Source: Phycisphaerae bacterium
GTDB taxonomy: Bacteria > Planctomycetota > Phycisphaerae > UBA1845
Direction: 5' to 3'
Assembly (NCBI GenBank): GCA_029260215.1
Contig: JAJDDQ010000078.1
Coordinates: 1-64,000 of the forward strand
Length of the DNA: 64,000 nucleotides
In this document: positions 23,460 through 47,072 of the stretch, in pieces
How positions within the stretch are numbered: position 1 is the first letter of the stretch
Layout of the letters: each line of letters starts with the position of its first letter
The notes under the pieces: model-generated
Told to the model about the DNA's origin: nothing
What the model saw: only the letters and a program-made list of their open reading frames with translations
The model's database searches: none
Program-made: the position numbers and the translations under genes

Positions 23460-24110
23460 ATGTTTGAGCAGGGCATTTCAGCGAAGTGGATTCAGCGGGC
23501 ACAGTGGGCGATTTACATCTTTTTCGGCGGTTTTGCATTGCTGGCGCTGTGGTATGTCTTCGCCGCAGCCTTTCGCCGCGAGGTGTTTCAGTCGCTGATC
23601 GGTGCGGGCGTGGTGTGGGGGTCGATCGGGCTGGGTATCGGTATGCATTGCGTGTCGCAGATGGCCGCCGTCGTAAACGCCAACCGTCAGTCGATCCTGG
23701 AATTATCGGACCGTATCGCAGAGCTTCAGGCGTCGCTCGCGGAGGCTCGTCCGACGGTCGAGCTGGGGGTGAGCGAAGAGCGGGTTGATGAACTGGTCGC
23801 TGCCGACGCTCAATCCGATGCCTATCCTCGTTTGACCGAGCCGGCGGAAGCGATTGAACCGCTCGCAATGGGGCAGGACGCGTTATCGGACGAGCAGGCT
23901 GCGGAGTCCGATGATGCCCCGTCGGATTTTCGTACCGCGTTTCGCGAGGCGTTGTTCGACGGCCAACTGGCCGAGGCCCTCGATATCGGTCAGCGCATGC
24001 TCGACGCGGACCCGCAAAGCGCGATGGCCAAGCAGTTTGCGGAACTTCGCCCGCTTCTGGAGCAGCGAAACGAAGCTCTTATCGACTCCGGCGAACCTGT
24101 CTTGGTTTGA
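23460..24110 (+). CDS. hypothetical membrane protein
   Basis: Two N-terminal TM helices are followed by an acidic, Ala-rich, probably helical tail. No known motif. Confidence 0.45.
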   Translation: MFEQGISAKWIQRAQWAIYIFFGGFALLALWYVFAAAFRREVFQSLIGAGVVWGSIGLGIGMHCVSQMAAVVNANRQSILELSDRIAELQASLAEARPTVELGVSEERVDELVAADAQSDAYPRLTEPAEAIEPLAMGQDALSDEQAAESDDAPSDFRTAFREALFDGQLAEALDIGQRMLDADPQSAMAKQFAELRPLLEQRNEALIDSGEPVLV

Positions 24111-24289
24111 CACTTTGTTTTTTTCGGCATGCCCGCAATCGGTCGCCAAAGACCGGGCTTCGCGTTGACTTGCTTTCCGCCGAACAGCTATTATTCATTG
24201 CATCGCGGTTTTCACTTCGGGGAGATTATCGACCCGTCGATGGGTGCGAGCCGGCGAGTCTCAAGAATACTTTCCCTGGGGTCAACACG

Positions 24290-27200
24290 ATGAATCGAGT
24301 ACTCGTCATAGCGGTCTACGCCGCGATGCTGACCGGCTGCAACGTTTCACGCGAAGCGAACAGTCCTCGTCTGCACACGTTCGCGACGACTGAGCCGGCT
24401 GCGTTTTCGCAATCGGAATCCATTTCGATCGGCGGGCGTTCGCTGGGCCGTGTCGATGTGCAGGCCAATGCGTTTACGGGCAGCCGCCAGGATTCCGTGT
24501 CGATCGCGCCGATGCGAAACGGGGACATCGTTGCGGTTTGGCAAAGTCGGCGGCAGGAGGAAGGGACGTACGGAATCTTCGCCCGGTTTATCGATCGGCG
24601 CGGGCGGAAGCTCGGTCCGGAAACGCACATCAATGCCTACACGGCCGACGCACAAAAGCAGCCCGCCGCCGCTGTGGACGGCGCGGGCGGTGTGTGGATC
24701 GCGTGGGAGTCGTTCGGGCAGGACGGCGACGGGCGCGGTGCTGTGCTTCGACGATTCGACGAGAAGCTAAAGCCGCTGACGCCGGAAATTATGGTGAGCG
24801 AAGAGTCCGCCGGGCATCAACGGTCGGTCTCGGTCGCGGGATTGCCCAACGGCGGCGTGAGCGTCGTGTGGGTTTCGCAAGGACATGACGATAGGCTGAG
24901 TCGCGTGTTCTCGCGCCGATTCGGGATCGCCGGGCAACCGATCGGCAAGAGTGTTCGCGTCGATCAGTCGGATGCATTCCGGGATGGCCAACCCGTCATT
25001 CGATCGGACGCGGGCGGTCGAACGGTTGTCGTCTGGCAGCGGTGGGGCGATCCGTTTTTGCCGTCGGGCATTATGGCTCGACGGTTCGATGCGGAGGGTT
25101 CGTTCCTTGGAGATGAGTTCGCGGTTTGCGATGTTGAGGACCGTGCTCATGTTGAGCCGTCGCTGGCGGTGGCGGCGGATGGCCGATTCGTGGTGGCTTG
25201 GGCGACAGCCGCCGACGACGATTACGTGATTTCGATGCGTCGCTTCAGCGCGGACGGCCGACCGGCGTCTGATATCGAGCGTGTTGATCAGGGGGAATTC
25301 GGCGGGACGACGGGTTTGTCGGTGGCTTTGACGCGAGACGGGGCGTTCGTTGTGGCGTGGAGCAGGCAGGCGGAGCGCGAGACGGACCTTTACGCGCGGG
25401 CGTTCGATTCCGACGGCGAACAATTGAGCGATATTTTCCGTGTGACCGCTTCTGCGGAGGGCGATCAGCAGATCACTATTGCCGGTGGGGGGCAGCGCAT
25501 GGCTTGTGATGAGCGTGGTCGCATCGTCGTCGGATGGTCCGGCCAGGCTGGGGCGGGCGATTCTTCTGCGGCTGTTGTGACGATTATTTCAGCCGATTCG
25601 TTGCCAGCCATTGCCCATCGTTACAACGCGGGCGTGGAAGATGTGCCCGCGGCTGCTCCGCATCAGCCGCCGACTTTCTCGGCCAAGGAGCAGCCGATCG
25701 ATCGGGCGGCGATCGCGGAAGCTGAGGCTGGCAAAGCTGAGGCTGACGGGTTTCTCGGTATCGTGGACACCGGCTGGAACCCGCCCGATCCGCATTTGGC
25801 GGTCGGCATGAATCACATCGTTCAGGTGACCAACGGCGAGATCGCGTTTTTCACCAAGGAGGGTGTGATGACGTTTTCGGATGATCTCGAAGGCGCGACG
25901 GGTTTCTGGGGTCCGCTTGGCGCGACGACTTTCCTGTTCGACCCGGAAGTTATTTACGATTCGTTCGACGATCGATTCATCGCAATCGCCAACGAACGCG
26001 GGTCAAACGGAATACCCTATCTCCTGTTGGCTGTCTCGGATGACGGGGATCCCAACGGGTTGTGGCACAAATACCGCTTCGACATGTCCGCGTTGGGTAA
26101 CAACACCATCGATTCTCCGAACGTGTCCGTCGACGCGACGGCTGTGTACATCGGCGTGGATTTTCTGAGCAATTTCAATCATGTCGTGTTGATTGTGGAG
26201 AAGGCGGCTGTGCTCGTCGGCGACACGCCGGTGTTGAACAACACAACGGTTTCCTCGGTCCGCGCGATGGGGATGGTGGTCAACGCCAGCCTGCCCCCTG
26301 CACAATACATGATGGAATCGACGCTGAATCTGTCCAGCACCAACGTACGCATGTACGCCATCACCGACCCGTTCGGCGCTGCGACCGTCGAGACGTATGA
26401 CGTGTTTGTTTCGCTTTACGATCAGCCCGAAAACCCGCCGAGCCTTGGCACGACGATGCGCGTGGACACGTTCGATTCGCGATTCTGGAGCTGCATGTAT
26501 CGCGACGGGTTCGTCTGGGCGACGCACCACATCGGTGCGGGGTTTGCACGCCAGCGCTGGTATCAGATCGACATGAACGGTTGGCCTGAGGGCGAAGGGA
26601 CGCCGCTGGTCGTGCAGTCCGGGACGATCAGCCCGGGCGACGGTGCGCGTACGTACTACGGCAGCATCTGGGCGGACGAGTTTCAAAACGCGGTCATGTA
26701 TTTTTCGCGATCCAGCCCGACGGAATTCATTTCCATGAGCCGGACGTACCGTTTGGCCGACGATCCGCTGGGGCAAATGCGTACGCCGGAGTTCGTGAAA
26801 GTCAGCACCGATCCGCTGTCGATCACCGGCTCGGACCGCTGGGGCGATTACTCGATGGTCGTGACGGACCCGGCGGTCGCGGGTTTGTTCTGGGGCGTGG
26901 GGGAATACCTCGACAGCGAATGGCGTACGTGGGTGAATCCGTTCCCCGTCGTGGACCTGACGCCGCCGTCGATCGCGTCGGTCAGCCCGTTCGACGGCTA
27001 CATCGACCCGCGTCTGGAGAGCACCAACGGCCTGGATTTCAACCTGGGGATCAGCCAACTTACCATCACGTTTGACGAACCGGTGCGTAACGTCGGCGGC
27101 GGTTTGCTCGATGCTTCCGCCTTTACCATTACAGCCGATGCTGGCGTTGTGCCGCAGGTTGCGATCGCTAATTCGGTGGGCAATCCGGTGGTCGAGGTTT

Positions 27201-27526
27201 TTCTTGAGGACGTCATTCCCGTGCAGGCCAACACGACGATCACGATGGACATCGAAGACGAAAACGGAAACGCAACGACGCTTGAGATTCGTTATGGCTT
27301 CCTGCCGGCTGACGTGGATCAGGATGGGGCTGTTGGCCCGTTCGATCTGTTGCGATTCCGCCAGATTGTGAATGGTGTTTTCACACCGACGGAAGGTGCA
27401 AGCAAACTGTTCGCGGACATCGATCGCGACGGTGCGATCGGGCCTTTCGACCTGCTGGTATTGCGACAACTCATCAACGGCGTTGGGAATGCGACGCAGC
27501 CGTGGGCGGGTGAAGAACTGCCGTAG
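24290..27526 (+). CDS. large secreted lipoprotein with N-terminal ~50-aa repeats, a central unknown region and a C-terminal double dockerin-like repeat
   Basis: The start is MNRVLVIAVYAAMLTGC (lipobox), in frame with track ORF 24107..27526. At least 5 repeats end in …G.FVV.W (VSVVWVSQG, TVVVWQRWG, FVVAWATAA, FVVAWSRQA, IVVGWSGQA). C-terminal segment is DVDQDGAVGPFDLLRFRQIVNG…DIDRDGAIGPFDLLVLRQLINGV. Confidence 0.65.
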   Translation: MNRVLVIAVYAAMLTGCNVSREANSPRLHTFATTEPAAFSQSESISIGGRSLGRVDVQANAFTGSRQDSVSIAPMRNGDIVAVWQSRRQEEGTYGIFARFIDRRGRKLGPETHINAYTADAQKQPAAAVDGAGGVWIAWESFGQDGDGRGAVLRRFDEKLKPLTPEIMVSEESAGHQRSVSVAGLPNGGVSVVWVSQGHDDRLSRVFSRRFGIAGQPIGKSVRVDQSDAFRDGQPVIRSDAGGRTVVVWQRWGDPFLPSGIMARRFDAEGSFLGDEFAVCDVEDRAHVEPSLAVAADGRFVVAWATAADDDYVISMRRFSADGRPASDIERVDQGEFGGTTGLSVALTRDGAFVVAWSRQAERETDLYARAFDSDGEQLSDIFRVTASAEGDQQITIAGGGQRMACDERGRIVVGWSGQAGAGDSSAAVVTIISADSLPAIAHRYNAGVEDVPAAAPHQPPTFSAKEQPIDRAAIAEAEAGKAEADGFLGIVDTGWNPPDPHLAVGMNHIVQVTNGEIAFFTKEGVMTFSDDLEGATGFWGPLGATTFLFDPEVIYDSFDDRFIAIANERGSNGIPYLLLAVSDDGDPNGLWHKYRFDMSALGNNTIDSPNVSVDATAVYIGVDFLSNFNHVVLIVEKAAVLVGDTPVLNNTTVSSVRAMGMVVNASLPPAQYMMESTLNLSSTNVRMYAITDPFGAATVETYDVFVSLYDQPENPPSLGTTMRVDTFDSRFWSCMYRDGFVWATHHIGAGFARQRWYQIDMNGWPEGEGTPLVVQSGTISPGDGARTYYGSIWADEFQNAVMYFSRSSPTEFISMSRTYRLADDPLGQMRTPEFVKVSTDPLSITGSDRWGDYSMVVTDPAVAGLFWGVGEYLDSEWRTWVNPFPVVDLTPPSIASVSPFDGYIDPRLESTNGLDFNLGISQLTITFDEPVRNVGGGLLDASAFTITADAGVVPQVAIANSVGNPVVEVFLEDVIPVQANTTITMDIEDENGNATTLEIRYGFLPADVDQDGAVGPFDLLRFRQIVNGVFTPTEGASKLFADIDRDGAIGPFDLLVLRQLINGVGNATQPWAGEELP

Positions 27527-27607: not shown

Positions 27608-28753
27608 CTATATCTCGGCTTGACGCAGGGCGCGCAGCAGGTTGCCGCCCAGGATCTTGTGGATGTCCCGCTCGGAGTAGCCGCGGCCTAGCAGTTCCTG
27701 GGTGATGAACGGATACCCGGAAACATCTTCGAGCTGTTCGGGCATGGTGCTCGCCCCGTCGTAATCCCCACCCAAGCCGACGTGGTCGATGCCGGCGACG
27801 CGGACGATGTGATCGATATGATCCACAAGCATGCCGACGTTTCCGTGCGGGATGGGGTGGGCCTCCTTCCACTGCCTCAGCGCCCTTTCGAACGCCTGCT
27901 CGTCGGGATGCTCCGCCTTGAGCTTGCGCTCGTCCTGAAACTGGTTCGCTTGCAGCAAGGAGCCCTCCGGATGAATAAAGCCGGAGAAGAAGTTGACCAT
28001 CACGACGCCACCGTTTGAGGCGACCATACGAAGTACATCGTCGGGCACGTTGCGATCGTGCCGGGCAATAGCATAAGCCGACGAATGCGAGAAAATAACC
28101 GGGGCCTCGCTCACACGCAGGGCGTCGCGCATGGTTTCAGCCGAGACGTGGGCGAGATCCACAAGCATGCCCAGACGATTCATCTCCAGAACCACCTGTT
28201 CACCGAACTCCGACAGCCCGTCGCTGCGCGCTACGTCGGTAGCTGAATCAGCCCAGTCGATGGTCTCCGAGTGGGTCAGCCCCATGTACCGGGCGCCGAG
28301 CTCGTAGAATCTGGCCAAAGTATCCAGGGAGTTTTCGATTGTGTGTCCACCCTCGACGCCGATCAACGAAGCAATTTTTCCATTTTTGTGGATACGGGCG
28401 ATGTCTTGGGCCGTGTAGGCCAACTCGAACACGGCGGAGTAGCGCTTCACCATTCGATGTATCAGGTCGAACTGCTCCAGTGCCATATCGGTAGCCGTCC
28501 CGGAATGCGCCGTTTCGGGCGGAACGTACACCACCCAGAACTGCCCTCCAAGGCCGCCCCGGCGGAGCCGCGGAATGTCGGTCTGCAGCTGGTCCTGCGG
28601 CAGAGCGATGTCCATATTGTCGAAGGAAGAACCGGCCAGCGAGCGTATCTTCCAGGGCAGATCGTTGTGTCCGTCGATTACGATGGCGGCTCGGTGGACG
28701 CGCATCGCCGCGACCATCGTCTCACTGTAGCCTATTGGTCTGGGATTCTCCAT
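27608..28753 (-). CDS. membrane (renal-type) dipeptidase, peptidase family M19
   Basis: AIVIDGHNDLPW, …LGGDYDG and HVGLGGDYDG are M19 signatures. The start is MENPRPIG at 28753, preceded by AGGAGG 9 nt upstream. Confidence 0.85.
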   Translation of the reverse strand: MENPRPIGYSETMVAAMRVHRAAIVIDGHNDLPWKIRSLAGSSFDNMDIALPQDQLQTDIPRLRRGGLGGQFWVVYVPPETAHSGTATDMALEQFDLIHRMVKRYSAVFELAYTAQDIARIHKNGKIASLIGVEGGHTIENSLDTLARFYELGARYMGLTHSETIDWADSATDVARSDGLSEFGEQVVLEMNRLGMLVDLAHVSAETMRDALRVSEAPVIFSHSSAYAIARHDRNVPDDVLRMVASNGGVVMVNFFSGFIHPEGSLLQANQFQDERKLKAEHPDEQAFERALRQWKEAHPIPHGNVGMLVDHIDHIVRVAGIDHVGLGGDYDGASTMPEQLEDVSGYPFITQELLGRGYSERDIHKILGGNLLRALRQAEI

Positions 28754-29669
28754 ATCCGAACTTCTCCTCCTTGATCCTAACGAACATGGTTCACAGAACC
28801 ATACGCTGATCGTGGATTCCACCGTGAACCAACTTGTTTGGTCGCTCCAACGTGCTAACTCCACTCCTGTTGTCCTGAGGACGATGGCGCCAGCTTGTTT
28901 TCGCGCGCGGGCAACCCCTGCTCCAGCACGAACTTTCCGTTTTGAGGCGGATCACGACGAGGTCGTTGACTAGATGGGAATGGAATTCCTCGGCCTTCCT
29001 GCCCAAGAACTCCGGTTCAAAACGCCTATACCTTCAAGAACGGCAGCCTAAGCGTCTCCTTTTCGCTGGCCGCCGCGAACTGTCAAGAACTCTCGAATGC
29101 GGTTGGCACGACCCATAAAAGGTCTTAGCGAGACGCGGCAAGTGGTTCATCCGCCTTCGTGAGACGATCGAACAGCGACTCCCAGGGTGAGAGCTCATGC
29201 AATCGCCTGGCGTTTTTCGTTCGACCAACGTATACTGTATAGCAGGAAGGGGAGTTTCCGTGAAGTGCAAGCAAGCTCCCAAGACGACTCGAATACGAGT
29301 CATCGGATGACTAGCTAGAGGGCAACCCGGTTATGCCGGGGGGCTCGTTAAACAGTAATCCACATCGATAAGCACCTTCAGGTGTTTGACCACGTCGGCT
29401 TTTTTGCATGTCGAGGTATCATTGAGGTTCCCTGGGACGGACTCGATGGATCAGTCCGCTCTTGAACGGGCGCAGCGGATCGTCCAGACCGCCAAGGATC
29501 TCGATCAGTAGACGGCCTGACAAACAGAGACGCTCTCGAAGGAAAACGGCCAAGAGAGGATCGTGAAGTGATTGAGTATGAAACTTCTCCGAGCTCAGCT
29601 CGAGGAATAATGAGAGACATCGATGATTGTGATGTGTCGATATTTGCGCAGCCACGATTCAGCAGTCCA

Positions 29670-30758
29670 ATGGAACGAGTCGCAACCGCAATCGTTTATT
29701 GCGAAGCCAACTTCGGTACCGTCGATGGAAAGACCGCCAACGGGCTCGTTCGTTACTCGGAGCTGTACGACATCCTCTCGGTCATCGACAGCGAGAAGGT
29801 TGGCCTCGATGCCGGAGTCGCGCTCGGCGAAGAGCCAAAGGGCATCCCCATCTCTCGCGATCTCGCCGACGCGCTGGCCCGCGCCGGAACTGTACCCGAC
29901 TATTTCATCTTCGGAGTGGCACCGGCGAGCGGCATGTTATCGATAAGCGAACGCGGAATCGTGCTCGAGGCCATGGCTCTCGGGATGAACGTCGTGAACG
30001 GTCTGCATGAGTTTCTGAACGACGATCCGGAGTTCGCTGCGATGGCCGCGGCGAAAGACGTGCAGATCCTCGACGTTCGGAGGCCCCGCGCAAAGAAGGA
30101 CTTGCGGCTGTTCAGCGATCGCATCGTTGAGGTCACCTGCCCGCGTATCGCCGTGTTAGGCACCGACTGCGCCATCGGAAAGCGCACGACCGCTACGATC
30201 CTTACGCGCGCGCTGAATGATTGTGGCGTAAACACCGTGTTGGTCGGCACCGGCCAGACCGGGTTAATCCAAGGAGCGCGCTACGGTGTCGCGCTCGATG
30301 CTGTACCATCACAGTTTTGTTCGGGTGAGTTGGAGGCCGCCATCGTCGAAGCGTTCGAAGGCGAAACCCCCGATGTGATCGTCATTGAAGGACAGGGCGC
30401 ACTGAGTCACCCCGCCTTCTCGACCTCGAGCCTCATCATTCGGGGCAGCCGTCCCGACGGCGTCGTCCTGCAGCACGCACCGAAACGCACTCATCGTTGC
30501 GACTTCGCACAAATGGCGATGCCGACGCCCGCCGCTGAAATCAATCTCATCCAGACATTCGCCGATACGAAGGTGATCGGCCTCACGATTAATCACGAGA
30601 ACATGTCCGATGCTGAGGTCAGCGCGGCCATATCACTGTATGAGAATGAACTCGGCATCCCCGCCACCGATGCGTTATCCCGTCCACCCGAGCGTCTGGT
30701 TGATATGGTCCTTGCGGCGTTCCCGGCACTCGAGGCGAAGCTGACGGCAGGCGTGTGA
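29670..30758 (+). CDS. DUF1611 family protein (DgcN-like; putative D-amino-acid N-acetyltransferase), N-terminal Rossmann-like + P-loop-like domain
   Basis: ATAIVYCEANFGTVDGKTANGLVRYSE…VLGTDCAIGKRTTA is typical DUF1611 architecture. The start at MERVATAIVY is within track ORF 29568..30758; an alternative upstream start is at 29568. Confidence 0.75.
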   Translation: MERVATAIVYCEANFGTVDGKTANGLVRYSELYDILSVIDSEKVGLDAGVALGEEPKGIPISRDLADALARAGTVPDYFIFGVAPASGMLSISERGIVLEAMALGMNVVNGLHEFLNDDPEFAAMAAAKDVQILDVRRPRAKKDLRLFSDRIVEVTCPRIAVLGTDCAIGKRTTATILTRALNDCGVNTVLVGTGQTGLIQGARYGVALDAVPSQFCSGELEAAIVEAFEGETPDVIVIEGQGALSHPAFSTSSLIIRGSRPDGVVLQHAPKRTHRCDFAQMAMPTPAAEINLIQTFADTKVIGLTINHENMSDAEVSAAISLYENELGIPATDALSRPPERLVDMVLAAFPALEAKLTAGV

Positions 30759-31831
30759 TGACAGGGCCGCGATTGGAAATCGATCTCGAAAAGATCCACC
30801 ACAACGCCCGCACCCTGATCGAACGGCTGGCCGAACGTGGCATCTCTGTCACGGGCGTTACAAAGGCAACCCTCGGCTCACCGGAGATCGCGAACACGTT
30901 ACTTCGGGCGGGCGTGAGTGCACTCGGTGACTCCCGAATCGAGAACATCGAGGCGATGCGTCGTGCGGAGGTACGGGCGTCTATGACACTCATTCGCTCT
31001 CCCATGGTCAGCCAGGCTGCCCGCGTCGTCATGCACGCCGACGTCAGTTTTAATACGGAACTCGACGTCATCAGCAAGCTCTCGTCCGCCGCGCAGAAAG
31101 CGCGTCGAACGCACGGGATCGTGCTCATGGTCGAGCTTGGAGACCTCCGTGAAGGCATCATGCCCGGCGATCTTGAGAACACCGTACGTGAGACACTTCG
31201 CTTCCCGAACATCGTGCTCAAGGGTATCGGCACCAACCTCGCATGTCGCAGTGGAGCGTCGCCCGACGTCAAGAACATGACCGAGCTGTCCGCGCTGGCC
31301 GATTCGATAGACGCGACGTTCGGCCCCATGCTCAGCATCGTCTCGGGGGGCAACTCCGGCAACCTGCCGTGGGCGCTCGGCGGTGTGGACACCGGGCGGA
31401 TCAACGATCTCCGCTTAGGGGAATCGCTCCTGCTCGGTCGCGAAACGCTCCATCGCCAACCGATCGACGGTCTGTACACCGACGCCATCACGCTCATCGC
31501 CGAAGTGATTGAGTCGAAGGCCAAGCCATCGCAGCCCTGGGGCGAGATCGCACAGACCGCGTTCGGCGAGAATCCACCCGCCACGGACCGGGGCCTCATC
31601 TCGCAGACGATCCTTGCCGTTGGACGCCAGGACACCGATCCGTGCGGCCTTCAAGCGCCAGCGGGAATCGAAATCCTCGGCGCCAGCAGCGACCACCTCA
31701 TCGTAGACACCGGTCGCGACCGCCCGTGCGTCGGCGCAGAGATCACCTTCCAGCTCAACTACAGCGCGCTCGTCCGCGCCATGACCTCACCCTTTCTCGC
31801 CAAGGTCGTGAAAGCCCATGTTCCCGTGTGA
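30755..31831 (+). CDS. putative amino-acid racemase, PLP-dependent alanine-racemase-fold family (DgcA-like)
   Basis: It overlaps the DUF1611 gene by 4 nt (ATGA). N-terminal TIM-barrel alanine-racemase-like fold (…GVTKATLGSPEIANTLLRAGVSALGDSRIENIEAM…VELGDLREG…). Confidence 0.7.
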   Translation: MMTGPRLEIDLEKIHHNARTLIERLAERGISVTGVTKATLGSPEIANTLLRAGVSALGDSRIENIEAMRRAEVRASMTLIRSPMVSQAARVVMHADVSFNTELDVISKLSSAAQKARRTHGIVLMVELGDLREGIMPGDLENTVRETLRFPNIVLKGIGTNLACRSGASPDVKNMTELSALADSIDATFGPMLSIVSGGNSGNLPWALGGVDTGRINDLRLGESLLLGRETLHRQPIDGLYTDAITLIAEVIESKAKPSQPWGEIAQTAFGENPPATDRGLISQTILAVGRQDTDPCGLQAPAGIEILGASSDHLIVDTGRDRPCVGAEITFQLNYSALVRAMTSPFLAKVVKAHVPV

Positions 31832-35203: not shown

Positions 35204-37933
35204 TTAGCCCCGGTGACCTCTGGCTTGGCTGCTCTTGTTCACGAATTCCGCGTCCAGGACCTTCTCGATGCGCTGCTTCGCTTCATCGAGGTGTGCGAGC
35301 GTGTAAGCGTCCAGCTTGTCGCGCGAAAGGTCGAGCGCGACCTCGATGTCGTCGTGAATGTCCTTGAGCGTCATGCGTACGATCGAGTATGCATCCGCGT
35401 TGAGGCCTCGGCTCGGGCCGGCCAAGTGTATGTTGATCAGCCGGTTGAGGTAGGCACGCTGGAGGTTGCGTCTCGTGCTCGAAATCCTCGGCTTGCGATT
35501 GGTGTACCTGCCGGACGGTGCGCCGTCGAGTTCGGTCCAGATCGCTTTCGTAACCGTGTTGAACAACTCGGGCACGGTCATGGCGTCCTCATCGGCGGGC
35601 ACTTTCAGCTCTCCGTCGTAGATGCGATTGATGACCATCGGGTTGATGAGAATCGTCAACACGCGCGACTGCATGCCGAGGATGCGGTCGTGGACGTCAT
35701 AGGAAACGTCGAAGTTCATCTGATCGCTGTCCCAGTGAATGAATCGTCCGGCGGCCAGCTTGTTCAGCAACTCCGGCGAGAAATCGTAGTATTCGTCGCT
35801 GAAAACCGTGTCAGCCAGAAGACTCAGCGCTTCACGCTGTTTGGCGACCGGCACGATTTCGATGGGCGGCTTGGCGTTGGGATCACCCTTGTGGTGACGG
35901 TGGACGACCTGTCCGCCGACCAGGCGGGCGGCGATACGGGCACTGAAGCCGTATTCGTTGGTGACGATGTTGAACGCGCGGCGCATGCGTGCGTAGCTCT
36001 CACCATCCTTGACAGCCCGATCGGGAAGGTCTTTTAACAACCGGCGCGACAAAGCCATACGGTGCTTGGCGTAGGCGATCGGATCGTCGCCGTTGTCGTA
36101 GCGGTACGTGTAGGGGTCGGGTCCGAACTCGGAAGTATCCTCGTCGGTCCCGTAGGCCAACCCGTCCTCCGCCACGCGCGAGAGAATCGTTTTGAGCATG
36201 TCGCCTTCGGATTTCGCATCACCACCGGACGAGAACTGACTGTAGCCATACGCGATGGCCCAATCGTCGTAGGGGCCTGTAGTCTGGGACACGAAATCGC
36301 TCTGCTCGATCTCAGACTGAGCGTACTCGGCGGGGTTGTAATCCATGATCGATCCGGTGAGCGCACGGGATTCGGAACTGGGCGAGAGCACATCGCTGAG
36401 TTTCTTCCAGGAACTGCCCTTGAAGTTGTGACGAAGCCCGAGCGTGTGCCCGACCTCGTGGGCGACGATTTCCCGGATGACCTGTCCGACGAACTCCTCG
36501 GGCAGATCGCGATTGCCATTCTGCACGGAAAGAAGCTGGTTGAAAGCCATTTGATGTACCATGCCGCGTCCAAGATCGCAGGCGCTGTCCCGCTGATCGA
36601 AAAAGCGTGTGGGCGTGGACACGGTCTCGGTCTCGAACATGTGCGCGCCAGCCGCGTATTCGGGCGTCAGTTGTTCCATCATCGGCGTGAACTTGTATTC
36701 GGGGAATTCGCGGAAGAAGTCGTCACGCATAGGGTCGTCGTGCATGTCGAACGCCGACGAACCCATGAGCGTATTCTCCTGGATGTAGAAGCGGACCATC
36801 GAATCATCGAAGATGATATCCGCATCGAGAATCTGGCCTGTGAACGGGTTCACGCGTGAAGGTCCGCGTGCGAAGGCTCGGCCGCTGACAATCCAGCGGA
36901 AGAAGTTGTAGCGGATATCCTCCGGGTCGAGGTCTTTGAATTCGTTGGTGTCGGTTTGCTGGCGGACTTGAACGGCGCTTAGCAGGCCGACCTTCTCAAA
37001 CGCGTCGTTCCATTCAAGGATGCCTTCGCGCACGTAGCGACGGAACTTCACCGGCACGGTCTTTTCGATGTAAAAGACGATCGGGTTCTCGACGGGTGAT
37101 TCCGTGGCTCTGGGGTCTTGCTTGCGCAGGTTCCACCGATGGATGTAGCGTTTGAAAATGGTCGGATCGTTGTGATCGGTGCTCCAGTCTTTCTGTGCGG
37201 TCATGAAGTAGCCGATGCGATCGTCAGCCTCGCGCGGCTTGTAATCGTTCTTCGGGATTTCAGAGAGGCTGACATACACCGATGCGATCACGCCGTCCGA
37301 TGCAGGCCCCTTGCCCATGTAGGCAGCGTCGACGGAAATCTCCACGTTGTGCGGAAAGGTTTTGATCGTGCTCCAGCGCGAGAGTTTGGCGTCCATGCGC
37401 CGGCTGCCGTACGCGCTGCCCAGACCGACGAAATCCGTCTTGAGCAGGTCGCCGAGGTCGATGACCGGATCACCGCCGGGGGCTTCGGTCTTGATGTCGA
37501 GGGCTTTGACGATGGTGTCGGTGTAGGTTCTGCCGACAACGTCCTCAACGGTGCTGCCCTTGGCATCCTTGTAGCGCGTGTCGGACTCCATGAGGACGAG
37601 CTTCTTGTCGTGACGCTCCCAGTAGAGGGCGCTGCCGCCGAGCATCCAGCCAGCGTAGGTCGGTCCTTTTGAGACCGAGAGGCTGAGCAGGAAAGGCTTC
37701 TTGATTTTCGATTTGGGAATCCTGGCCAGCAGCGTGTCTTTTTCCTTGTCGAAGTAGAGCGTGAAGAACCCTTCCTTGACTTCCATGTCTTTGACGACTT
37801 CGTCGAATTTCGGGAAATCGTCCTTGTCTTTCTTGCCCGCGAGCGCGGACGACGGAGCAAGCATGCCGGCAAGCAGCAGGACCATCGCCGCTCGAGCGAA
37901 ATAGTTGGTCGAGTTTGTCATTGCGTGATTCAT
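35204..37933 (-). CDS. secreted zinc-dependent metalloprotease (zincin HExxH; DUF5117/DUF4953-type), ~909 aa
   Basis: VAHEVGHTLGLRHNF contains the HExxH motif. A signal peptide is present. It is paralogous to the downstream gene. Confidence 0.75.
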   Translation of the reverse strand: MNHAMTNSTNYFARAAMVLLLAGMLAPSSALAGKKDKDDFPKFDEVVKDMEVKEGFFTLYFDKEKDTLLARIPKSKIKKPFLLSLSVSKGPTYAGWMLGGSALYWERHDKKLVLMESDTRYKDAKGSTVEDVVGRTYTDTIVKALDIKTEAPGGDPVIDLGDLLKTDFVGLGSAYGSRRMDAKLSRWSTIKTFPHNVEISVDAAYMGKGPASDGVIASVYVSLSEIPKNDYKPREADDRIGYFMTAQKDWSTDHNDPTIFKRYIHRWNLRKQDPRATESPVENPIVFYIEKTVPVKFRRYVREGILEWNDAFEKVGLLSAVQVRQQTDTNEFKDLDPEDIRYNFFRWIVSGRAFARGPSRVNPFTGQILDADIIFDDSMVRFYIQENTLMGSSAFDMHDDPMRDDFFREFPEYKFTPMMEQLTPEYAAGAHMFETETVSTPTRFFDQRDSACDLGRGMVHQMAFNQLLSVQNGNRDLPEEFVGQVIREIVAHEVGHTLGLRHNFKGSSWKKLSDVLSPSSESRALTGSIMDYNPAEYAQSEIEQSDFVSQTTGPYDDWAIAYGYSQFSSGGDAKSEGDMLKTILSRVAEDGLAYGTDEDTSEFGPDPYTYRYDNGDDPIAYAKHRMALSRRLLKDLPDRAVKDGESYARMRRAFNIVTNEYGFSARIAARLVGGQVVHRHHKGDPNAKPPIEIVPVAKQREALSLLADTVFSDEYYDFSPELLNKLAAGRFIHWDSDQMNFDVSYDVHDRILGMQSRVLTILINPMVINRIYDGELKVPADEDAMTVPELFNTVTKAIWTELDGAPSGRYTNRKPRISSTRRNLQRAYLNRLINIHLAGPSRGLNADAYSIVRMTLKDIHDDIEVALDLSRDKLDAYTLAHLDEAKQRIEKVLDAEFVNKSSQARGHRG

Positions 37934-37972: not shown

Positions 37973-40726
37973 TTAGAGCTTGAAGTCAGCATCGAGGGCT
38001 TTGTCGATTCGGGCCTTTGATTCGTCGAGGTGTGCCCGTGTGAACGCATCCAGCTTGCCGTCGCCGGCTGCCAGGAAATCGCCGATTTGCTGGGACAGTC
38101 CCTTCAGTGTCAGCCGCGTGACCGAGTGGGCGTCCGCTGGCATGGTCCTGCCCGGTTTTTCCAGGAGGATTCCGACGAGCATGTTGAGCTGCGTTCGCTG
38201 CAGCGAGCGGCGAATGCTCGAAATGCAAGGTTTGCGGTTTGAGTAATTGCCGTTGGCAGCGCCGGTCAGCTCAGACCAGATAGCCCGTGTGACCCTGGAC
38301 ATCACCTCGGGGACGGTCATTGCGTCTTCGTCCGCAGGAATCTTTGATTCCGCGTCGTAGATGCGTCCCAGTGTGATCGGGTTCATTAGGTGGAACAGCG
38401 GCCAATACTGTGTGGCGGCGATGCGATCGTGCAGTGGATAGTCGCGTTTGCTGTCGAATTCATCGCTGGCCCAGTGGCGCCAATGGCCCGAGCCCAACCT
38501 GGTGATCAGATCGGGGTCGAAAATGAAGGCTTTGTCGCTGAAAAGGTGTTCTACGAGAAAGTCCAGCGCTTCGCGCTGCTTCTTGACCGGCACGACGACG
38601 GTAGGCGGCTGCTCGTCGGGATCGCCTCGGTGGTTGCGTGTGACGTATTGTCCGCCCACAAATCGCCCGGCGAATCGCGAGACCCTGCCGTACTCGAAGA
38701 GCAGCGCATCGAACGCCCGGCGCAGGCGGCTGTAGGCATCGCCGTCTTCCATCGCCCAGGAATCGATGTCCTTTTGAAGGTGCTGCACCAGTTCGATGCG
38801 GTACTTGGCGTAGGCGATGGGGTCGTCGCCGTTGTCGTAGACGTTGACCAGCGGGTCCGGTGCGAACGTGCCCCGATCCTCGTCGGAGGCGTACGCATGT
38901 CCCGGCTCGGCTGACCGCGATGCGATGGACTTCAGAAGCTCTTTTTCGGTTTTGAACTCGTCGTCCGTATGCCGGTAGCCGTATTCGATCGCCCATTCAT
39001 CGTAGGGTCCGAGACCGACGCCGTAGAAATTCTTCTGGTTGTCTTCACTCGTGTTGAACATGGCTGGGCAGTAGTCCATCACCGAGGCCGACGTGGGTAC
39101 GTTGGCATCGCCGTTGGTTGCGAGGATTTCCTCAAGGGATTTCCACGAACTGGCTTTGAAGTTGTGACGCAGACCCAGGGTATGCCCGACCTCGTGGGAG
39201 ACGAGCCATTTGACGAATTGGCCTGTGTATTTCTCGCTCAGCCCTTGGCCGCCCTCGGCTTTGAGGATCAGGTTTGCAAAGGCCATCTCATGGTTCATGC
39301 CGCTCGCGTAGGTGCAGACAGCCTGGTCCTGGTGGAGCATGCTCTGAACCCACTCGTGATCCCAGGCTGTTTCCGCGCCGCCGTAGTGCGTTGTGTTGGG
39401 GAGCAGTTGCTCCTGTTGCGGTACGAACGCCCATTCAGGGTGAAGGGAAAGAAACTCGCGGGCCTGGGGATCCCAAGCGGCTGTCGGACCCTTGGCGGCC
39501 ATCCGTTCGTACTTGGCGTTGATGGCGCGCAGGAACGAATCGTCGATGACGATGTCGGCGTCGAGGATTTGCCCGGTTTTGGGATTGGTTCGCGACGGGC
39601 CCATTGCGAACGCCCTGCCGCTGACGATCCAGCGGATAAAGTTGTAACGCACGTCTTCGGGATCGAGGTCTTTGAATTCGTTGGTGTCGGTCTGCTGGCG
39701 GACAGCCACCGCGTTCAGCAAACCCGCTTTGGCGAAAGCGTCGTTCCACATGAGCACGCCTTCGCGGATGTAGCGGCGGTACTGGAGCGGAATCGTTTTT
39801 TCGAGGTAGAAGACGATTTGGTCGTCCGGGTGGACGTCTGAGACCTTGGCATCGGGGTCGGCTTTGCGCAGATGCCAGCGATGCACGCGGCGATCGAAGA
39901 CGGTCGTGGCGTTGTGGTCTTTGCTCCAATCCTTGACCGCGCTCATGAAGTACCCGACGCGGTCGTCGGCTTGACGCGGTTTGTAGCCGTTTTTTTCCGG
40001 CAACTCACTGATGCTGTAATGCACGCGGGCCAACACACCGTTTTCGTTGCCGCGCATGAGGGCGGCTTCGACGGTTAGCTCGATGTTCTTCTCGAAGGCT
40101 TTGGTGGTCACCCACTTGCTGAGCGACGCACTCATGCTGGCTGAGTAAAACCGGCTGATGCCGATCCGGTCGCGTTTGAAGACCTTATCCAGATCGATGA
40201 CCGGGTCGCTCCCGCGCTTGCTGACGATCTTGGTCGCGAAAAGAATGCGATCGGTATACGTCCTGGCCACCACATCCTTGACCGTGGATTTGTCCGCCGT
40301 CGCGTAGCCTAGGTCGGGGCTGACCAGGATGAGCTGCTTGTCGCGTTCCTCCCAGCGGACGACGTAGCCTCGCCACATGTACCCGGTCATGGTCGGCCCG
40401 CCGGATATGCTCGTCGAGATCAAAAAGTCCTTGCCGATCATTTTCTTGGGGATGACGCCGAGCAGGTGGTCCTTCTTCTTATCGTAATAGAGATCGAAGA
40501 ATCCGGGAGTCTTTTCGTGCCCCTCGCTGACTTCGTCAAAGGGTGGGAAGTCGGGCTTTTTCTCCTTCTCTTTTTTCTCGTCCTTGGGTTTTTCCGCTGC
40601 CGGTGGGGCATGGGGTTTGGCGGGCGGATCTTCCGCGCGCGTCGCACCGGGCGACAGGGCGATCAAACAGGCACAAACGCCGACCCATCCGATTGACGAA
40701 CCGGGCGACCACAACTTGAGATTCAT
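37973..40726 (-). CDS. secreted zinc-dependent metalloprotease, tandem paralog
   Basis: VSHEVGHTLGLRHNF is present. It is collinear with the upstream paralog, for example WNDAFEKVGLL vs WNDAFAKAGLL and VRQQTDTNEFKDLDPEDIRYNFFRWIVSGRAFA in both. The start is MNLKLWS (40726), preceded by AAGGAG. Confidence 0.75.
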   Translation of the reverse strand: MNLKLWSPGSSIGWVGVCACLIALSPGATRAEDPPAKPHAPPAAEKPKDEKKEKEKKPDFPPFDEVSEGHEKTPGFFDLYYDKKKDHLLGVIPKKMIGKDFLISTSISGGPTMTGYMWRGYVVRWEERDKQLILVSPDLGYATADKSTVKDVVARTYTDRILFATKIVSKRGSDPVIDLDKVFKRDRIGISRFYSASMSASLSKWVTTKAFEKNIELTVEAALMRGNENGVLARVHYSISELPEKNGYKPRQADDRVGYFMSAVKDWSKDHNATTVFDRRVHRWHLRKADPDAKVSDVHPDDQIVFYLEKTIPLQYRRYIREGVLMWNDAFAKAGLLNAVAVRQQTDTNEFKDLDPEDVRYNFIRWIVSGRAFAMGPSRTNPKTGQILDADIVIDDSFLRAINAKYERMAAKGPTAAWDPQAREFLSLHPEWAFVPQQEQLLPNTTHYGGAETAWDHEWVQSMLHQDQAVCTYASGMNHEMAFANLILKAEGGQGLSEKYTGQFVKWLVSHEVGHTLGLRHNFKASSWKSLEEILATNGDANVPTSASVMDYCPAMFNTSEDNQKNFYGVGLGPYDEWAIEYGYRHTDDEFKTEKELLKSIASRSAEPGHAYASDEDRGTFAPDPLVNVYDNGDDPIAYAKYRIELVQHLQKDIDSWAMEDGDAYSRLRRAFDALLFEYGRVSRFAGRFVGGQYVTRNHRGDPDEQPPTVVVPVKKQREALDFLVEHLFSDKAFIFDPDLITRLGSGHWRHWASDEFDSKRDYPLHDRIAATQYWPLFHLMNPITLGRIYDAESKIPADEDAMTVPEVMSRVTRAIWSELTGAANGNYSNRKPCISSIRRSLQRTQLNMLVGILLEKPGRTMPADAHSVTRLTLKGLSQQIGDFLAAGDGKLDAFTRAHLDESKARIDKALDADFKL

Positions 40727-41066
40727 GATTAAGGCTCCTTGCATCCACCGTCACCAAACGTGCCGACGAGTTTGTTTCGAGATTCTGAACGAAACGCTCA
40801 TGCCCTCCGCCCGATTCTCGCAATTTCGAGAGTATAACGGAAGTTGCCGCGAAAAAGCGTGCCGCCAACCGGCGAGTTGACAGCTTATTACATATTGAGT
40901 TTCCTACCCAAACCGGGTATCGACCGGGAGTCGCCCGCAGCATTTGTCGAAGTTGCCGGTGTTTTCGCCGGTTGTGTGGCTGGCTGGGCTGGTGGCGGCC
41001 AGGATCGTGGCGGCGATTCCAGCGTATTCGCACCTGACGCGACGCGCGTCTTTTTTTGTAGGAAAT

Positions 41067-46968: not shown

Positions 46969-47072
46969 TTGGCAGCGACTTCCGGTTTGATTGTCCGTCA
47001 GATGCGTGCCGGTTAGACTGCTCGCGGAATGGAGAACGGGCCGTCGCTGGGTTAAGGATCGGAGACTCACTC

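What the first reader, a model, noticed from the sequence alone, without database searches (positions are those of the whole stretch)
27608..31831. M19 dipeptidase divergent from an overlapping DUF1611 (DgcN-like) gene and putative racemase (DgcA-like): candidate D-amino-acid / D-glutamate catabolic module
The DUF1611 gene and the alanine-racemase-fold gene overlap by 4 nt (ATGA), which implies translational coupling. As far as I recall, a DUF1611 protein (DgcN, an N-acetyltransferase) paired with a racemase (DgcA) was described as a D-glutamate catabolic route in marine Proteobacteria. Finding the pair here next to a renal-type M19 dipeptidase, which can cleave dipeptides with a C-terminal D-amino acid, and 13 kb from a peptidoglycan-peptide recycling cluster suggests that muropeptide-derived D-Glu/D-Ala is channelled into central metabolism. 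This is not something I know to be described for this lineage.
Basis: partly seen in the sequence, partly recalled or inferred. Interest (0 to 1): 0.7.

Follow-up and report, generated by a model that had tools for sequence, protein, structure and literature searches.

The report
DUF1611–ornithine-racemase-like cassette beside M19 dipeptidase
The three genes are real, but the pair is not the known D-glutamate (DgcN/DgcA) pathway: it is an uncharacterised, very widely spread two-enzyme cassette (a DgcN-family enzyme plus an ornithine-racemase-type PLP racemase, sometimes fused into one protein). It repeatedly sits next to dipeptidases and probably handles a D/L amino acid other than glutamate.

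Summary
All three genes exist at the stated coordinates. They are an M19 dipeptidase (27608-28756, minus strand), a DUF1611 gene (29610-30758) and a fold-type-III PLP racemase (30755/30758-31831). The overlap is GTGA (4 nt) or TGATG (1 nt), not ATGA.

The DgcN/DgcA reading fails its membership tests:
- The DUF1611 protein scores 167 bits against NCBI's DgcN model (cut-off 480; a true DgcN scores 551).
- True DgcA is an enolase-superfamily enzyme, unrelated to this racemase.
- This racemase is a full-length homologue of ornithine racemase. It keeps the Lys36/Cys164 catalytic pair, but it scores below the Orr cut-off.

The pair is a self-contained cassette:
- The racemase lies directly downstream in 71 of 80 genome loci from at least 10 phyla, at 65-93% identity.
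- The stop and start codons overlap in 69 of 70 junctions.
- It is plasmid-borne in Vibrio and roseobacters.
- It is truly fused in frame in at least three lineages.

M19 dipeptidases of five unrelated lineages flank the cassette in 12 loci, and M81 peptidases in three. This supports a link to peptide or D-amino-acid metabolism.

The substrate and the direction of the pathway are unknown; a basic, ornithine-like amino acid is more likely than glutamate. The peptidoglycan cluster 13 kb away recycles MurNAc and is not linked to the cassette in relatives.

Side lead: a multi-copy structured RNA with no Rfam match lies upstream.

The parts
27608..28756 (-). M19 (renal/Sco3058-type) dipeptidase, cytoplasmic. 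The ORF is open up to GTG 28864; the likely start is ATG 28756.
   Evidence: Pfam PF01244, E=1e-114. Best PDB match is 3id7 (Sco3058): 332 bits over residues 18-381. The motifs DGHNDLPW, EGGH, VDL(A/S)HV, IFSHSS and GGDYDG are all aligned. Orthologues at 87-88% identity lie next to the cassette in L004, L006 and L007, in three different arrangements.
29281..29405 (+). Structured ~125-nt RNA-like element: three hairpins, the last one terminator-like and followed by a U-run. It lies about 200 nt upstream of the DUF1611 start. The window copy has a damaged 5' arm in the last stem.
   Evidence: Alignment A2 and RNAalifold. Covariance model R1 scores the window copy at 124.9 bits. Full-length copies occur in about 75 metagenome contigs, often 2-3 per contig. 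In the 75-sequence alignment 94.9% of cells are paired and 20 pairs show compensatory changes. No Rfam match.
29610..30758 (+). DUF1611-family protein: an N-terminal Rossmann-like domain and a C-terminal P-loop domain. It belongs to the DgcN superfamily but to a distinct clade. The ORF is open from GTG 29568.
   Evidence: Pfam PF17396 + PF07755. NCBIfam DgcN model: 167.5 bits against a cut-off of 480. PDB matches: 2g0t 150 bits, 2obn 129 bits, 7xrj 122 bits. The core motifs GTDCxxGK, TGQTG, DAVPxxFxxGE and EGQGxL are shared with annotated DgcN. More than 7,800 homologues were found, with the best 120 at 74-100% identity.
30755..30760 (+). Stop/start junction GTGATG. The DUF1611 stop TGA is at 30756-58. 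The racemase start is GTG 30755 or ATG 30758.
   Evidence: Sequence. The family-wide junction census shows overlap in 69 of 70 junctions.
30758..31831 (+). Ornithine-racemase-type (Cys/Lys) PLP fold-type-III amino-acid racemase. An alternative GTG start lies at 30755.
   Evidence: Pfam PF01168. NCBIfam racem_Orr: 351 bits over the full length, against a cut-off of 480. Alignment with Salmonella OrnR and Ilyobacter Orr keeps K36, R129, N161, C164, R220, G222 and Y349. These positions are 66/66 invariant in the orthologues. The residue roles come from PMC13397332.

Best explanation
The region encodes a translationally coupled, horizontally mobile two-enzyme cassette. In this lineage an M19 dipeptidase sits beside it.

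Enzyme 1 is a DUF1611 protein. It has the same fold and conserved core motifs as the acetyl-CoA-dependent D-amino-acid N-acetyltransferase DgcN, but it belongs to a different clade.

Enzyme 2 is an ornithine-racemase-type PLP racemase. It uses a Lys/Cys acid-base pair and acts on an amino acid with a free alpha-amino group.

Proposed mechanism:
1. The M19 enzyme (in other lineages an unrelated M19, or an M81 peptidase) releases an amino acid from a small peptide, probably of the L-Xaa-D-Yaa type.
2. The racemase interconverts the D and L forms of that amino acid.
3. The DUF1611 enzyme, which probably forms a complex with the racemase, N-acylates one enantiomer. This makes the inversion irreversible. 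It is a 'racemise, then trap' order, the reverse of the DgcN then DgcA order.

The substrate is more likely a basic, ornithine-like amino acid than glutamate.

Shown here: domain identities, catalytic-residue conservation, obligate pairing, fusion and peptidase association.

Inferred: the acyl-transfer chemistry, the substrate, the direction of the pathway and the role of M19.
For: Pairing:
- The racemase lies directly downstream of DUF1611 in 71 of 80 genome loci from Planctomycetota, Gemmatimonadota, Acidobacteriota, Nitrospirota, Actinomycetota, Verrucomicrobiota, Deinococcota and alpha-, gamma- and delta-proteobacteria.
- The same pair occurs on annotated plasmids of Vibrio, Ruegeria and Phaeobacter.
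- Stop/start overlap is present in 69 of 70 junctions.
- True in-frame fusions exist. P0130 is found identically on 5 contigs from 4 samples. P0132 and P0128 have an intact DUF1611 C-terminus running straight into the racemase N-terminus.

Racemase: full-length Orr homology. The OrnR catalytic residues are invariant, with roles taken from PMC13397332. A clade-specific invariant Glu222 lies in the PLP-phosphate loop. This is a weak hint of a cationic side chain.

DUF1611: it shares the GTDCxxGK, TGQTG and EGQG core with annotated DgcN and matches PDB 7xrj at E=2e-34.

Peptidase link:
- Peptidase_M19 is the commonest Pfam family among the 137 immediate neighbours (9 of 137). M81 comes next with 3.
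- Twelve loci carry an M19 gene within 2 kb of the cassette.
- Those M19 genes fall into five groups that are at most 35% identical to one another.
- Among the closest relatives the M19 gene keeps its proximity despite three different arrangements, while all other flanking DNA differs.

Other DUF1611 clades also pair with stereo-inverting enzymes and peptidoglycan-peptide enzymes. The examples are DgcN-DgcA, and a haloarchaeal cluster of NlpC/P60, DUF1611 and dipeptide epimerase.
Against: - No member of this clade has been assayed.
- The substrate, the acyl donor (acetyl-CoA or another) and the enantiomer that is acylated are all inferred by analogy with one characterised relative that is only 26-28% identical in alignment A4.
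- About 85% of cassettes have no peptidase beside them, so the peptidase link is facultative.
- No transporter or regulator is consistently linked to the cassette.
- A PLP racemase does not need acylation to work, so the logic of step 3 is conjecture.
- In Coriobacteriia and Eubacteriales loci the same DUF1611 clade occurs with an M19 gene but without the racemase.
- Some plasmid copies sit among chaperone, HflKC and NhaA genes. This hints at a stress role rather than a nutritional one.
Confidence: 0.45

Rival explanations
1. The pair is a DgcN/DgcA-type D-glutamate catabolic route: D-Glu is N-acetylated, N-acetyl-D-Glu is racemised, and the product is deacetylated. The route is fed by muropeptide-derived L-Ala-D-Glu or D-Ala, cleaved by the M19 enzyme and supplied by the peptidoglycan recycling cluster 13 kb away.
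For: The DUF1611 family is shared with DgcN. A racemase gene is coupled to it. The M19 enzyme is closest to Sco3058, which from my own knowledge (Cummings et al. 2010, Biochemistry 49:611; reference seen) prefers L-Xaa-D-Xaa dipeptides. A MurQ/SpoIID/M23 cluster lies at 44.6-52.5 kb.
Against: The DgcN model scores 167 bits against a cut-off of 480, while a control DgcN scores 551. RefSeq/PGAP calls the orthologues only 'DUF1611 domain-containing protein'. DgcA belongs to the enolase superfamily; the window racemase has no hit to the DgcA model and, being a PLP enzyme, cannot use an N-acetylated alpha-amine. Its nearest characterised relatives act on ornithine. The peptidoglycan cluster handles the sugar part and is not conserved with the cassette.
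Confidence: 0.07
2. A biosynthetic or stress-protective cassette. The racemase makes a D-amino acid (for example D-ornithine) from the L pool. The DUF1611 enzyme acylates it into an end product, such as an inert N-acyl-D-amino-acid solute, a signal or a building block. The M19 enzyme recycles or degrades that product. The cassette would belong to a stress regulon.
For: Plasmid copies lie beside GroES/GroEL, Hsp20, HflK/HflC, NhaA and Crp/Fnr genes. HflC is 84% identical between a Ruegeria plasmid and gammaproteobacterial MAG loci that carry the cassette. The RNA element upstream of the window cassette occurs elsewhere next to MpsC/DUF2294, YflT, KaiC-like and CsrA genes. Most carriers are marine or from sediment. 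The cassette is usually found without any catabolic partner or transporter.
Against: Stress-gene neighbours are seen in only a handful of loci. No such product is known. The recurrent neighbours with a clear function are peptidases, which fits catabolism better. The RNA element is confined to the Phycisphaerae-like relatives of the window.
Confidence: 0.2
3. A plain ornithine racemase with an accessory protein. The racemase is an orthodox OrnR supplying or consuming D-ornithine. The DUF1611 protein is a non-catalytic or regulatory partner, and the M19 adjacency in this window is incidental.
For: There is 351 bits of full-length similarity to the Orr model, and every OrnR catalytic residue is present. 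In its sequence-similarity network of OrnR homologues, the OrnR paper lists a Nereida sp. 'OrnR' among the aligned sequences. I have not shown that this sequence belongs to the DUF1611-paired clade.
Against: The score is below the Orr cut-off. None of the known ornithine contexts is present, neither oraSE/ord/ortAB nor the D-Orn/Lys decarboxylase operon. The DUF1611 partner is more conserved than the racemase (65-93% against 56-87%) and keeps the catalytic-core motifs of DgcN. M19 adjacency arose at least five times.
Confidence: 0.15
4. A peptide-tailoring enzyme pair. The cassette modifies a small peptide or natural product rather than a free amino acid.
For: The fused form P0130 lies just downstream of a 42-aa ORF and an MvdD-like ATP-grasp gene (weak Pfam hit). 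A distant DUF1611 in Burkholderia is flanked by two ATP-grasp genes. Haloarchaeal DUF1611 pairs with a dipeptide epimerase.
Against: OrnR-type enzymes act on free amino acids. Most cassettes have no biosynthetic neighbours. The ATP-grasp hit is weak and comes from a single lineage.
Confidence: 0.05

Closest known systems
DgcN-DgcA D-glutamate catabolic pathway (Yu et al. 2023, ISME J 17:537; cited in PMC12363236 and PMC10845958)
   Same: A DUF1611-family enzyme is encoded immediately upstream of a stereo-inverting enzyme. The GTDCxxGK, TGQTG and EGQG core motifs are shared. Carriers are marine bacteria. The likely outcome, conversion between D and L amino-acid pools with an N-acyl intermediate, is similar.
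   Different: The DUF1611 protein is only 26-28% identical to DgcN in alignment A4 and scores 167 bits against the model's cut-off of 480. It carries an extra ~50-residue N-terminal region. The partner is a PLP fold-type-III racemase, not an enolase-superfamily N-acyl-amino-acid racemase, so the order of the chemical steps must differ. No LysR-type DgcR or D-amino-acid transaminase lies nearby.
Ornithine racemase: Orr of the clostridial L-ornithine fermentation, and OrnR (STM2358) of Salmonella (Phillips et al. 2025, PMC13397332)
   Same: Full-length homology: 35% identity to Salmonella OrnR in alignment A5 and 38% to Ilyobacter Orr by tblastn. The following are conserved: the PLP lysine K36, the catalytic C164 in an N-L-x-C motif, the PLP-binding R129 and R220, N161 in place of the stacking His, and Y349.
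   Different: The score is below the NCBIfam Orr cut-off (351 against 480). No D-ornithine aminomutase/Ord/Ort genes and no D-Orn/Lys decarboxylase operon are present. The racemase is obligately paired, and sometimes fused, with DUF1611. There is an invariant Glu where OrnR has Gly/Ala (R-L-G-E). The substrate is untested.
Sco3058 / renal dipeptidase (MEROPS M19; PDB 3id7)
   Same: 332 bits over nearly the full length, and the metal-ligand motifs are aligned. From my own knowledge, Sco3058 prefers L-Xaa-D-Xaa dipeptides.
   Different: Specificity is untested here. The M19 genes that flank the cassette in other phyla belong to four other M19 lineages, each at most 31% identical to the window enzyme.
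DUF1611 + dipeptide epimerase clusters (for example the Halorussus plasmid cluster NlpC/P60 - DUF1611 - dipeptide epimerase - prolyl oligopeptidase - DacB)
   Same: A DUF1611 gene lies next to a stereo-inverting enzyme and to cell-wall-peptide hydrolases.
   Different: That DUF1611 is 39% identical to the window protein in alignment A4 (41% by tblastn). Its partner is again of the enolase type. It is functionally uncharacterised.

Membership tests
DgcN (N-acetyltransferase, NCBIfam NF041892 equivalog) | Score at or above the curated cut-off (480 bits) of the DgcN model | tested here: not met
   The window protein scores 167.5 bits. A control DgcN from Ruegeria sp. TM1040 scores 551.4 bits. Orthologues in Vibrio score 156 bits.
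DgcN (N-acetyltransferase, NCBIfam NF041892 equivalog) | DUF1611_N + DUF1611 (P-loop) architecture and conserved core motifs | tested here: met
   Pfam PF17396 + PF07755. The motifs GTDCxxGK, TGQTG, DAVxxDFxxGxxE and EGQGxL are shared with three annotated DgcN proteins.
DgcN (N-acetyltransferase, NCBIfam NF041892 equivalog) | Adjacent enolase-superfamily N-acetyl-D-Glu racemase DgcA | tested here: not met
   The partner is a PF01168 PLP enzyme. Annotated DgcN loci have DgcA directly downstream.
DgcN (N-acetyltransferase, NCBIfam NF041892 equivalog) | Acetyl-CoA-dependent N-acetylation of D-Glu | not testable with these tools
   This needs enzymology. The primary paper (PMC10030869) is not in the held library.
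DgcA (N-acetyl-D-Glu racemase, NF042940) | Enolase-superfamily fold (MR_MLE_N + MR_MLE_C) and a score of at least 400 bits | tested here: not met
   The control DgcA carries MR_MLE_N/C and scores 508 bits. The window racemase has no hit to that model and has a different fold.
Ornithine racemase Orr/OrnR (PLP fold type III, Cys/Lys) | Fold-type-III domain with the PLP lysine and the catalytic cysteine (K36 and C164 in OrnR numbering), plus R129, R220 and N161 | tested here: met
   Alignment A5 with Salmonella OrnR and Ilyobacter Orr. These positions are invariant in all 66 orthologues. Residue roles come from PMC13397332.
Ornithine racemase Orr/OrnR (PLP fold type III, Cys/Lys) | Score at or above the curated cut-off (480 bits) of NF040742 racem_Orr | tested here: not met
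   351.4 bits over model positions 2-350 of 351.
Ornithine racemase Orr/OrnR (PLP fold type III, Cys/Lys) | An ornithine-pathway context: oraSE/ord/ortAB, or a D-Orn/Lys decarboxylase with permeases | tested here: not met
   None is found among the neighbours of 80 loci. The Salmonella context is shown for contrast.
Ornithine racemase Orr/OrnR (PLP fold type III, Cys/Lys) | Racemisation of ornithine | not testable with these tools
   This needs enzymology.
MEROPS M19 dipeptidase (renal dipeptidase / Sco3058 type) | Peptidase_M19 domain with the binuclear-metal ligand motifs | tested here: met
   PF01244, E=1e-114. The HxD, EGGH, HV, SHS and GGDYDG motifs align with 3id7.
MEROPS M19 dipeptidase (renal dipeptidase / Sco3058 type) | Hydrolysis of L-Xaa-D-Xaa dipeptides | not testable with these tools
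   This is inferred only from similarity to Sco3058.
Translationally coupled operon pair | Stop/start overlap conserved across relatives | tested here: met
   Of 70 junctions, 61 have a 4-nt overlap, 8 have a 1-nt overlap and 1 reads through. In-frame fusions occur in other lineages.

The most novel reading that the evidence does not exclude
The DUF1611 + OrnR-type racemase cassette is an uncharacterised bifunctional 'racemise-and-acylate' system that has spread across phyla by horizontal transfer. In it, a PLP racemase has taken the place that the enolase-type DgcA holds in the only known DUF1611 pathway. It would define a new route between D and L amino-acid pools in marine and sediment bacteria, probably for a basic amino acid released by M19 or M81 peptidases. 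In this Phycisphaerae-like lineage it would sit behind a new multi-copy structured RNA that also accompanies stress genes.
Probability: 0.3. Interest if true: 0.7.

Novelty: new variant of a known kind. Interest (0 to 1): 0.5.

Why it matters
D-amino acids from cell-wall debris are a large and poorly understood pool of marine organic nitrogen.

Surveys already count 'dgcN' by homology. PMC12363236 reports it in 32 class-level clades, including Woeseiales and Gemmatimonadetes-rich sediments. This analysis shows that a very abundant DUF1611 clade is not DgcN. That clade has more than 7,800 homologues, and its members are 65-93% identical across phyla. It is wired to a completely different racemase. 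Homology-based D-Glu budgets may therefore be inflated, and a second pathway remains uncharacterised.

The cassette is small and is sometimes a single fused polypeptide. It is present in cultured strains: Vibrio europaeus, V. parahaemolyticus FORC_022, Phaeobacter porticola P97, Ruegeria conchae, Persicirhabdus sediminis KCTC 22039 and Ahrensia kielensis DSM 5890. Its function is therefore directly testable.

Tried and rejected
1. A riboswitch shared by all cassettes. The conserved element upstream of the window operon is absent from the 75 loci of other phyla and matches no Rfam family. It turned out to be a multi-copy element found in many contexts.
2. A peptidoglycan cluster upstream. The region 13 kb upstream holds guaA, guaB, thiamine and Na+/H+ exchanger genes.
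3. Other conserved neighbours. All-against-all clustering of ORFs from 82 loci found only three recurrent neighbours: M19, a lineage-restricted Cys-rich secreted repeat protein (13 loci) and an HTH protein (8 loci). No transporter or regulator is consistently present.
4. A chaperone/HflKC 'stress island'. It is seen on four plasmids and in two or three MAG loci only. That is too sparse to carry the main explanation.
5. The L065 'fusion', and also P0126 and P0127. These look like 1-nt indels or frameshift read-throughs and were not counted. P0130, P0132 and P0128 have clean in-frame junctions.
6. The primary DgcN paper and the Sco3058 paper are not held in the library. DgcN active-site residues therefore could not be checked, and the Sco3058 specificity is cited from memory.
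7. A literature search for DUF1611, COG3367, COG3457 and TM0796 found nothing relevant.
8. The promoter and terminator scan of 27.4-32.2 kb was uninformative.
9. Structure prediction and fold search were not run. PDB sequence matches (2g0t, 2obn, 7xrj, 3id7) already fix the folds, and the tools return no coordinates for pocket analysis.

Full report
**1. Observation**

The window has three ORFs as described.

- The M19 ORF runs from 27608 to 28864 on the minus strand. Pfam gives PF01244 at E=1e-114. The likely start is the ATG at 28756, because similarity to relatives begins at 28765.
- The DUF1611 ORF runs from 29568 to 30758. It carries PF17396 and PF07755. The identical database protein P0001 starts at the ATG at 29610.
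- The racemase ORF runs from 30755 to 31831 and carries PF01168.

The junction reads GTGTGATGA. The DUF1611 stop codon is TGA at 30756-58. The racemase can start at GTG 30755, which gives a 4-nt GTGA overlap. It can also start at ATG 30758, which gives a 1-nt overlap; the 357-aa protein from that ATG is the form on record from NCBI in the protein collection. The literal 'ATGA' is therefore wrong, but the inference of coupling is right.

**2. How general the pair is**

The DUF1611 protein has more than 7,800 database homologues, and the best 120 are 74-100% identical.

A scan of one genome per species returned 80 loci at 65-93% identity. They come from Phycisphaerae and other Planctomycetota (the closest, at 87-93%), Gemmatimonadota, Acidobacteriota, Nitrospirota, Binatia, Actinomycetota, Verrucomicrobiota, Trueperaceae and many alpha-, gamma- and delta-proteobacteria. 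In 71 of the 80 loci a racemase orthologue (56-87% identity) follows directly.

Of 70 scorable junctions, 61 have a 4-nt NTGA overlap, 8 have a 1-nt overlap and one reads through.

Identity does not follow taxonomy. Gemmatimonadota and Acidobacteriota copies at 79-82% are closer to the window than Pirellulales or Gimesia copies at 76-77%. The pair is also plasmid-borne in four cultured species:

- Vibrio europaeus, where it lies between 'mobile mystery protein' genes and an integrase gene
- V. parahaemolyticus
- Ruegeria conchae
- Phaeobacter porticola

RefSeq names these genes 'DUF1611 domain-containing protein' and 'alanine/ornithine racemase family PLP-dependent enzyme'. The pair is therefore a self-contained cassette that moves horizontally.

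A search with a fused query found proteins that carry all three domains.

- Two of them (P0126, P0127), and also L065, look like frameshift read-throughs.
- P0130, P0132 and P0128 have an intact DUF1611 C-terminus running in frame into the racemase N-terminus.
- P0130 is encoded identically on five contigs from four samples.

These are genuine gene fusions. They argue that the two enzymes act together physically.

**3. Is it DgcN/DgcA?**

No.

- NCBI's DgcN model scores the window protein at 167.5 bits, against a cut-off of 480.
- A bona fide annotated DgcN from Ruegeria sp. TM1040 scores 551 bits. Its neighbour DgcA scores 508 bits on the DgcA model.
- DgcA is an enolase-superfamily protein (MR_MLE_N/C), close to L-Ala-D/L-Glu epimerase.
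- The window racemase has no similarity to DgcA.
- Two more annotated dgcN-dgcA loci, in Pantoea and Vibrio, confirm that architecture.

In alignment A4 the window protein is 26-28% identical to three DgcN proteins. It still shares the motifs GTDCxxGK, TGQTG, DAVxxDFxxGxxE and EGQGxL with them. The chemistry, acyl transfer by a P-loop/CoA-binding core, may therefore be conserved. Its best solved relative is the uncharacterised TM0796 (2g0t, 150 bits), ahead of 7xrj (122 bits).

Other DUF1611 clades pair with a dipeptide epimerase and cell-wall peptidases in haloarchaea, or with ATP-grasp ligases in Burkholderia.

**4. What the racemase is**

It matches the ornithine racemase model over its full length. 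The score is 351 bits over model positions 2-350 of 351, below the cut-off of 480.

Phillips et al. (PMC13397332) showed the following for Salmonella OrnR:

- It lacks the catalytic Tyr of alanine racemases.
- It uses Cys164 together with Lys36.
- R129 and R220 bind PLP.
- N161 replaces the stacking His.
- Y349 lies near the side-chain amine.

I recovered that Salmonella operon and an annotated Ilyobacter Orr. In alignment A5, K36, R129, N161, C164, R220, G222 and Y349 are all conserved in the window enzyme. The corresponding positions are invariant in 66 of 66 cassette racemases.

The enzyme is therefore very probably an active Cys/Lys PLP racemase. Such an enzyme needs a free alpha-amino group, so it cannot play DgcA's role on N-acetyl-D-Glu.

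None of the known ornithine contexts accompanies it. The cassette clade has an invariant Glu (R-L-G-E) where OrnR has Gly or Ala. I read this only as a weak hint of a cationic substrate.

**5. The M19 link**

The window M19 is closest to Sco3058 (PDB 3id7, 332 bits), and its metal-ligand motifs are aligned.

M19 orthologues at 87-88% identity flank the cassette in three of the four closest relatives, in three different arrangements: upstream and co-directional, downstream and convergent, and (in the window) upstream and divergent. No other flanking DNA is shared.

Eight more loci carry an M19 gene within about 0.5 kb of the cassette. They come from Gemmatimonadota, Trueperaceae, Opitutaceae, Hyphomicrobiales, Coriobacteriia/Anaerosomatales and Eubacteriales. 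Together with the window group, the twelve genes fall into five groups. Identity between groups is 35% or less, and no group is more than 31% identical to the window enzyme. The peptidase was therefore recruited independently several times.

Among the 137 immediate neighbours, Peptidase_M19 is the most frequent Pfam family (9). M81/MlrC peptidases come next (3, confirmed). Every M19 gene found in about 1.25 Mb of fetched flanks lies within 2 kb of the cassette. That is far from a random placement.

The association is real, but it is facultative: about 15% of loci have it. In Coriobacteriia-type loci the DUF1611 gene keeps the M19 neighbour but lacks the racemase. One of these loci has two tandem DUF1611 genes.

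**6. Mechanism**

The following are shown:

- two catalytically intact enzymes
- obligate coupling, and in some lineages fusion
- recurrent peptidase neighbours

The following are inferred:

- A peptidase releases a D (or L) amino acid from a small peptide.
- The racemase equilibrates the two enantiomers.
- The DUF1611 enzyme acylates one of them and so pulls the equilibrium. This is the reverse of the DgcN-then-DgcA order.

I put 0.45 on this general scheme and much less on any particular substrate. Rivals are listed in the Rival explanations section.

- Biosynthetic or stress-protective reading: 0.2. It is supported only by sparse chaperone, HflKC and NhaA neighbours on plasmids and by the company kept by the upstream RNA element.
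- Orthodox OrnR with an accessory protein: 0.15.
- Peptide tailoring: 0.05.

**7. The peptidoglycan cluster**

The region from 44.6 to 52.5 kb holds an M23 peptidase with Ig domains, a ROK kinase, an SSF symporter, a MurQ-like etherase and SpoIID. This is MurNAc recycling and lytic machinery, not peptide recycling. It lies beyond the downstream transhydrogenase-like ORFs (not scanned against Pfam), two Met-zincin genes and an ABC exporter. It is not shared with the closest relatives within the flanks available. It does not support a channelling argument.

**8. Side finding**

Window 29281-29405 holds a ~125-nt element with three hairpins, the last one terminator-like.

- Among the DUF1611 loci it occurs only in the Phycisphaerae-like relatives. 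L004 also has a second copy downstream of the racemase.
- The covariance model finds full-length copies at 90-125 bits in nearly all 80 fetched contigs, often 2-3 per contig.
- Similarity between loci ends sharply at the borders of the element.
- In a 75-sequence alignment, 94.9% of cells are paired and 20 pairs show compensatory changes. The slid controls pair at 34-50%.
- No Rfam family matches.
- Genes nearby include MpsC/DUF2294 (at least 8), KaiC-like, YflT, glycosyltransferases and CsrA.

Its role is open. It could be an sRNA, a leader or a mobile repeat.

**9. Verdict**

The DgcN/DgcA and D-glutamate interpretation is not supported. What is there is a new variant of the 'DUF1611 + stereo-inverting enzyme' theme. 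It is abundant, mobile and uncharacterised, and it is easy to test in cultured carriers.

Noticed in passing
window 29281-29405 (+); also L004 9659-9784 and 12434-12559, L005 9623-9748, L006 4305-4430, L008 193-321, and L097-L176: A ~125-nt structured element with three hairpins, the last terminator-like with a U-run, and an invariant single-stranded UCGGAUGA. It is multi-copy: full-length copies occur in nearly all of the 80 metagenome contigs fetched, often 2-3 per contig. It has sharp borders and compensatory changes, and it matches no Rfam family. Nearby genes include MpsC/DUF2294, KaiC-like, YflT and CsrA. It is a possible new sRNA, leader or repeat family.
   Followed up: partly
P0130 (L217 7386-9518; L218-L220), P0132 (L221 349-2463), P0128: Natural in-frame fusions of DUF1611 and the OrnR-type racemase (704-746 aa). 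P0130 recurs in four samples and lies downstream of a 42-aa ORF and a weak MvdD-like ATP-grasp gene.
   Followed up: partly
L065 11060-11090; P0126, P0127: Apparent DUF1611-racemase fusions that look like single-nucleotide indels or frameshift read-throughs in the overlap region. The cause could be assembly error or a pseudogene.
   Followed up: yes
L009 606-1439, L012 9034-9879, L031, L048, L050, L052, L053, L058, L062, L063, L081, L085 7069-7833, L093 4953-5792: A secreted Cys-rich repeat protein of about 250-280 aa (repeats like GWxCxRGYxxxGxxCVxV), with no solid Pfam match. It lies immediately beside the cassette in 13 loci of several phyla and on roseobacter plasmids.
   Followed up: partly
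L084 (V. europaeus plasmid), L093 (P. porticola plasmid), L085 (R. conchae plasmid), L096 (V. parahaemolyticus plasmid), L053, L058: Plasmid-borne cassettes lie near GroES/GroEL, Hsp20, HflK/HflC, NhaA and Crp/Fnr genes. HflC is 84% identical between the Ruegeria plasmid and gammaproteobacterial MAG loci. This suggests a larger shared mobile island.
   Followed up: partly
L074 7148-8518 and 8556-9869; L073, L075, L079: In Coriobacteriia-type and Eubacteriales loci the same DUF1611 clade occurs without the racemase but with an adjacent M19 gene. L074 has two tandem DUF1611 genes.
   Followed up: partly
window 35204-37933 (-) and 37973-40744 (-): Two tandem paralogous ~910-aa Met-zincin proteins (DUF5118 + DUF5117 + DUF4953) lie just downstream of the transhydrogenase-like ORFs.
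   Followed up: no
window 24107-27526 (+): A 1139-aa secreted-looking protein whose only Pfam hit is a C-terminal dockerin type I domain. It lies directly beside the M19 gene.
   Followed up: no
window 44599-52466: An M23 peptidase with Ig domains, a ROK kinase, an SSF symporter, a MurQ-like SIS protein and SpoIID. This is a plausible MurNAc/peptidoglycan-sugar recycling cluster in a planctomycete-like genome.
   Followed up: partly
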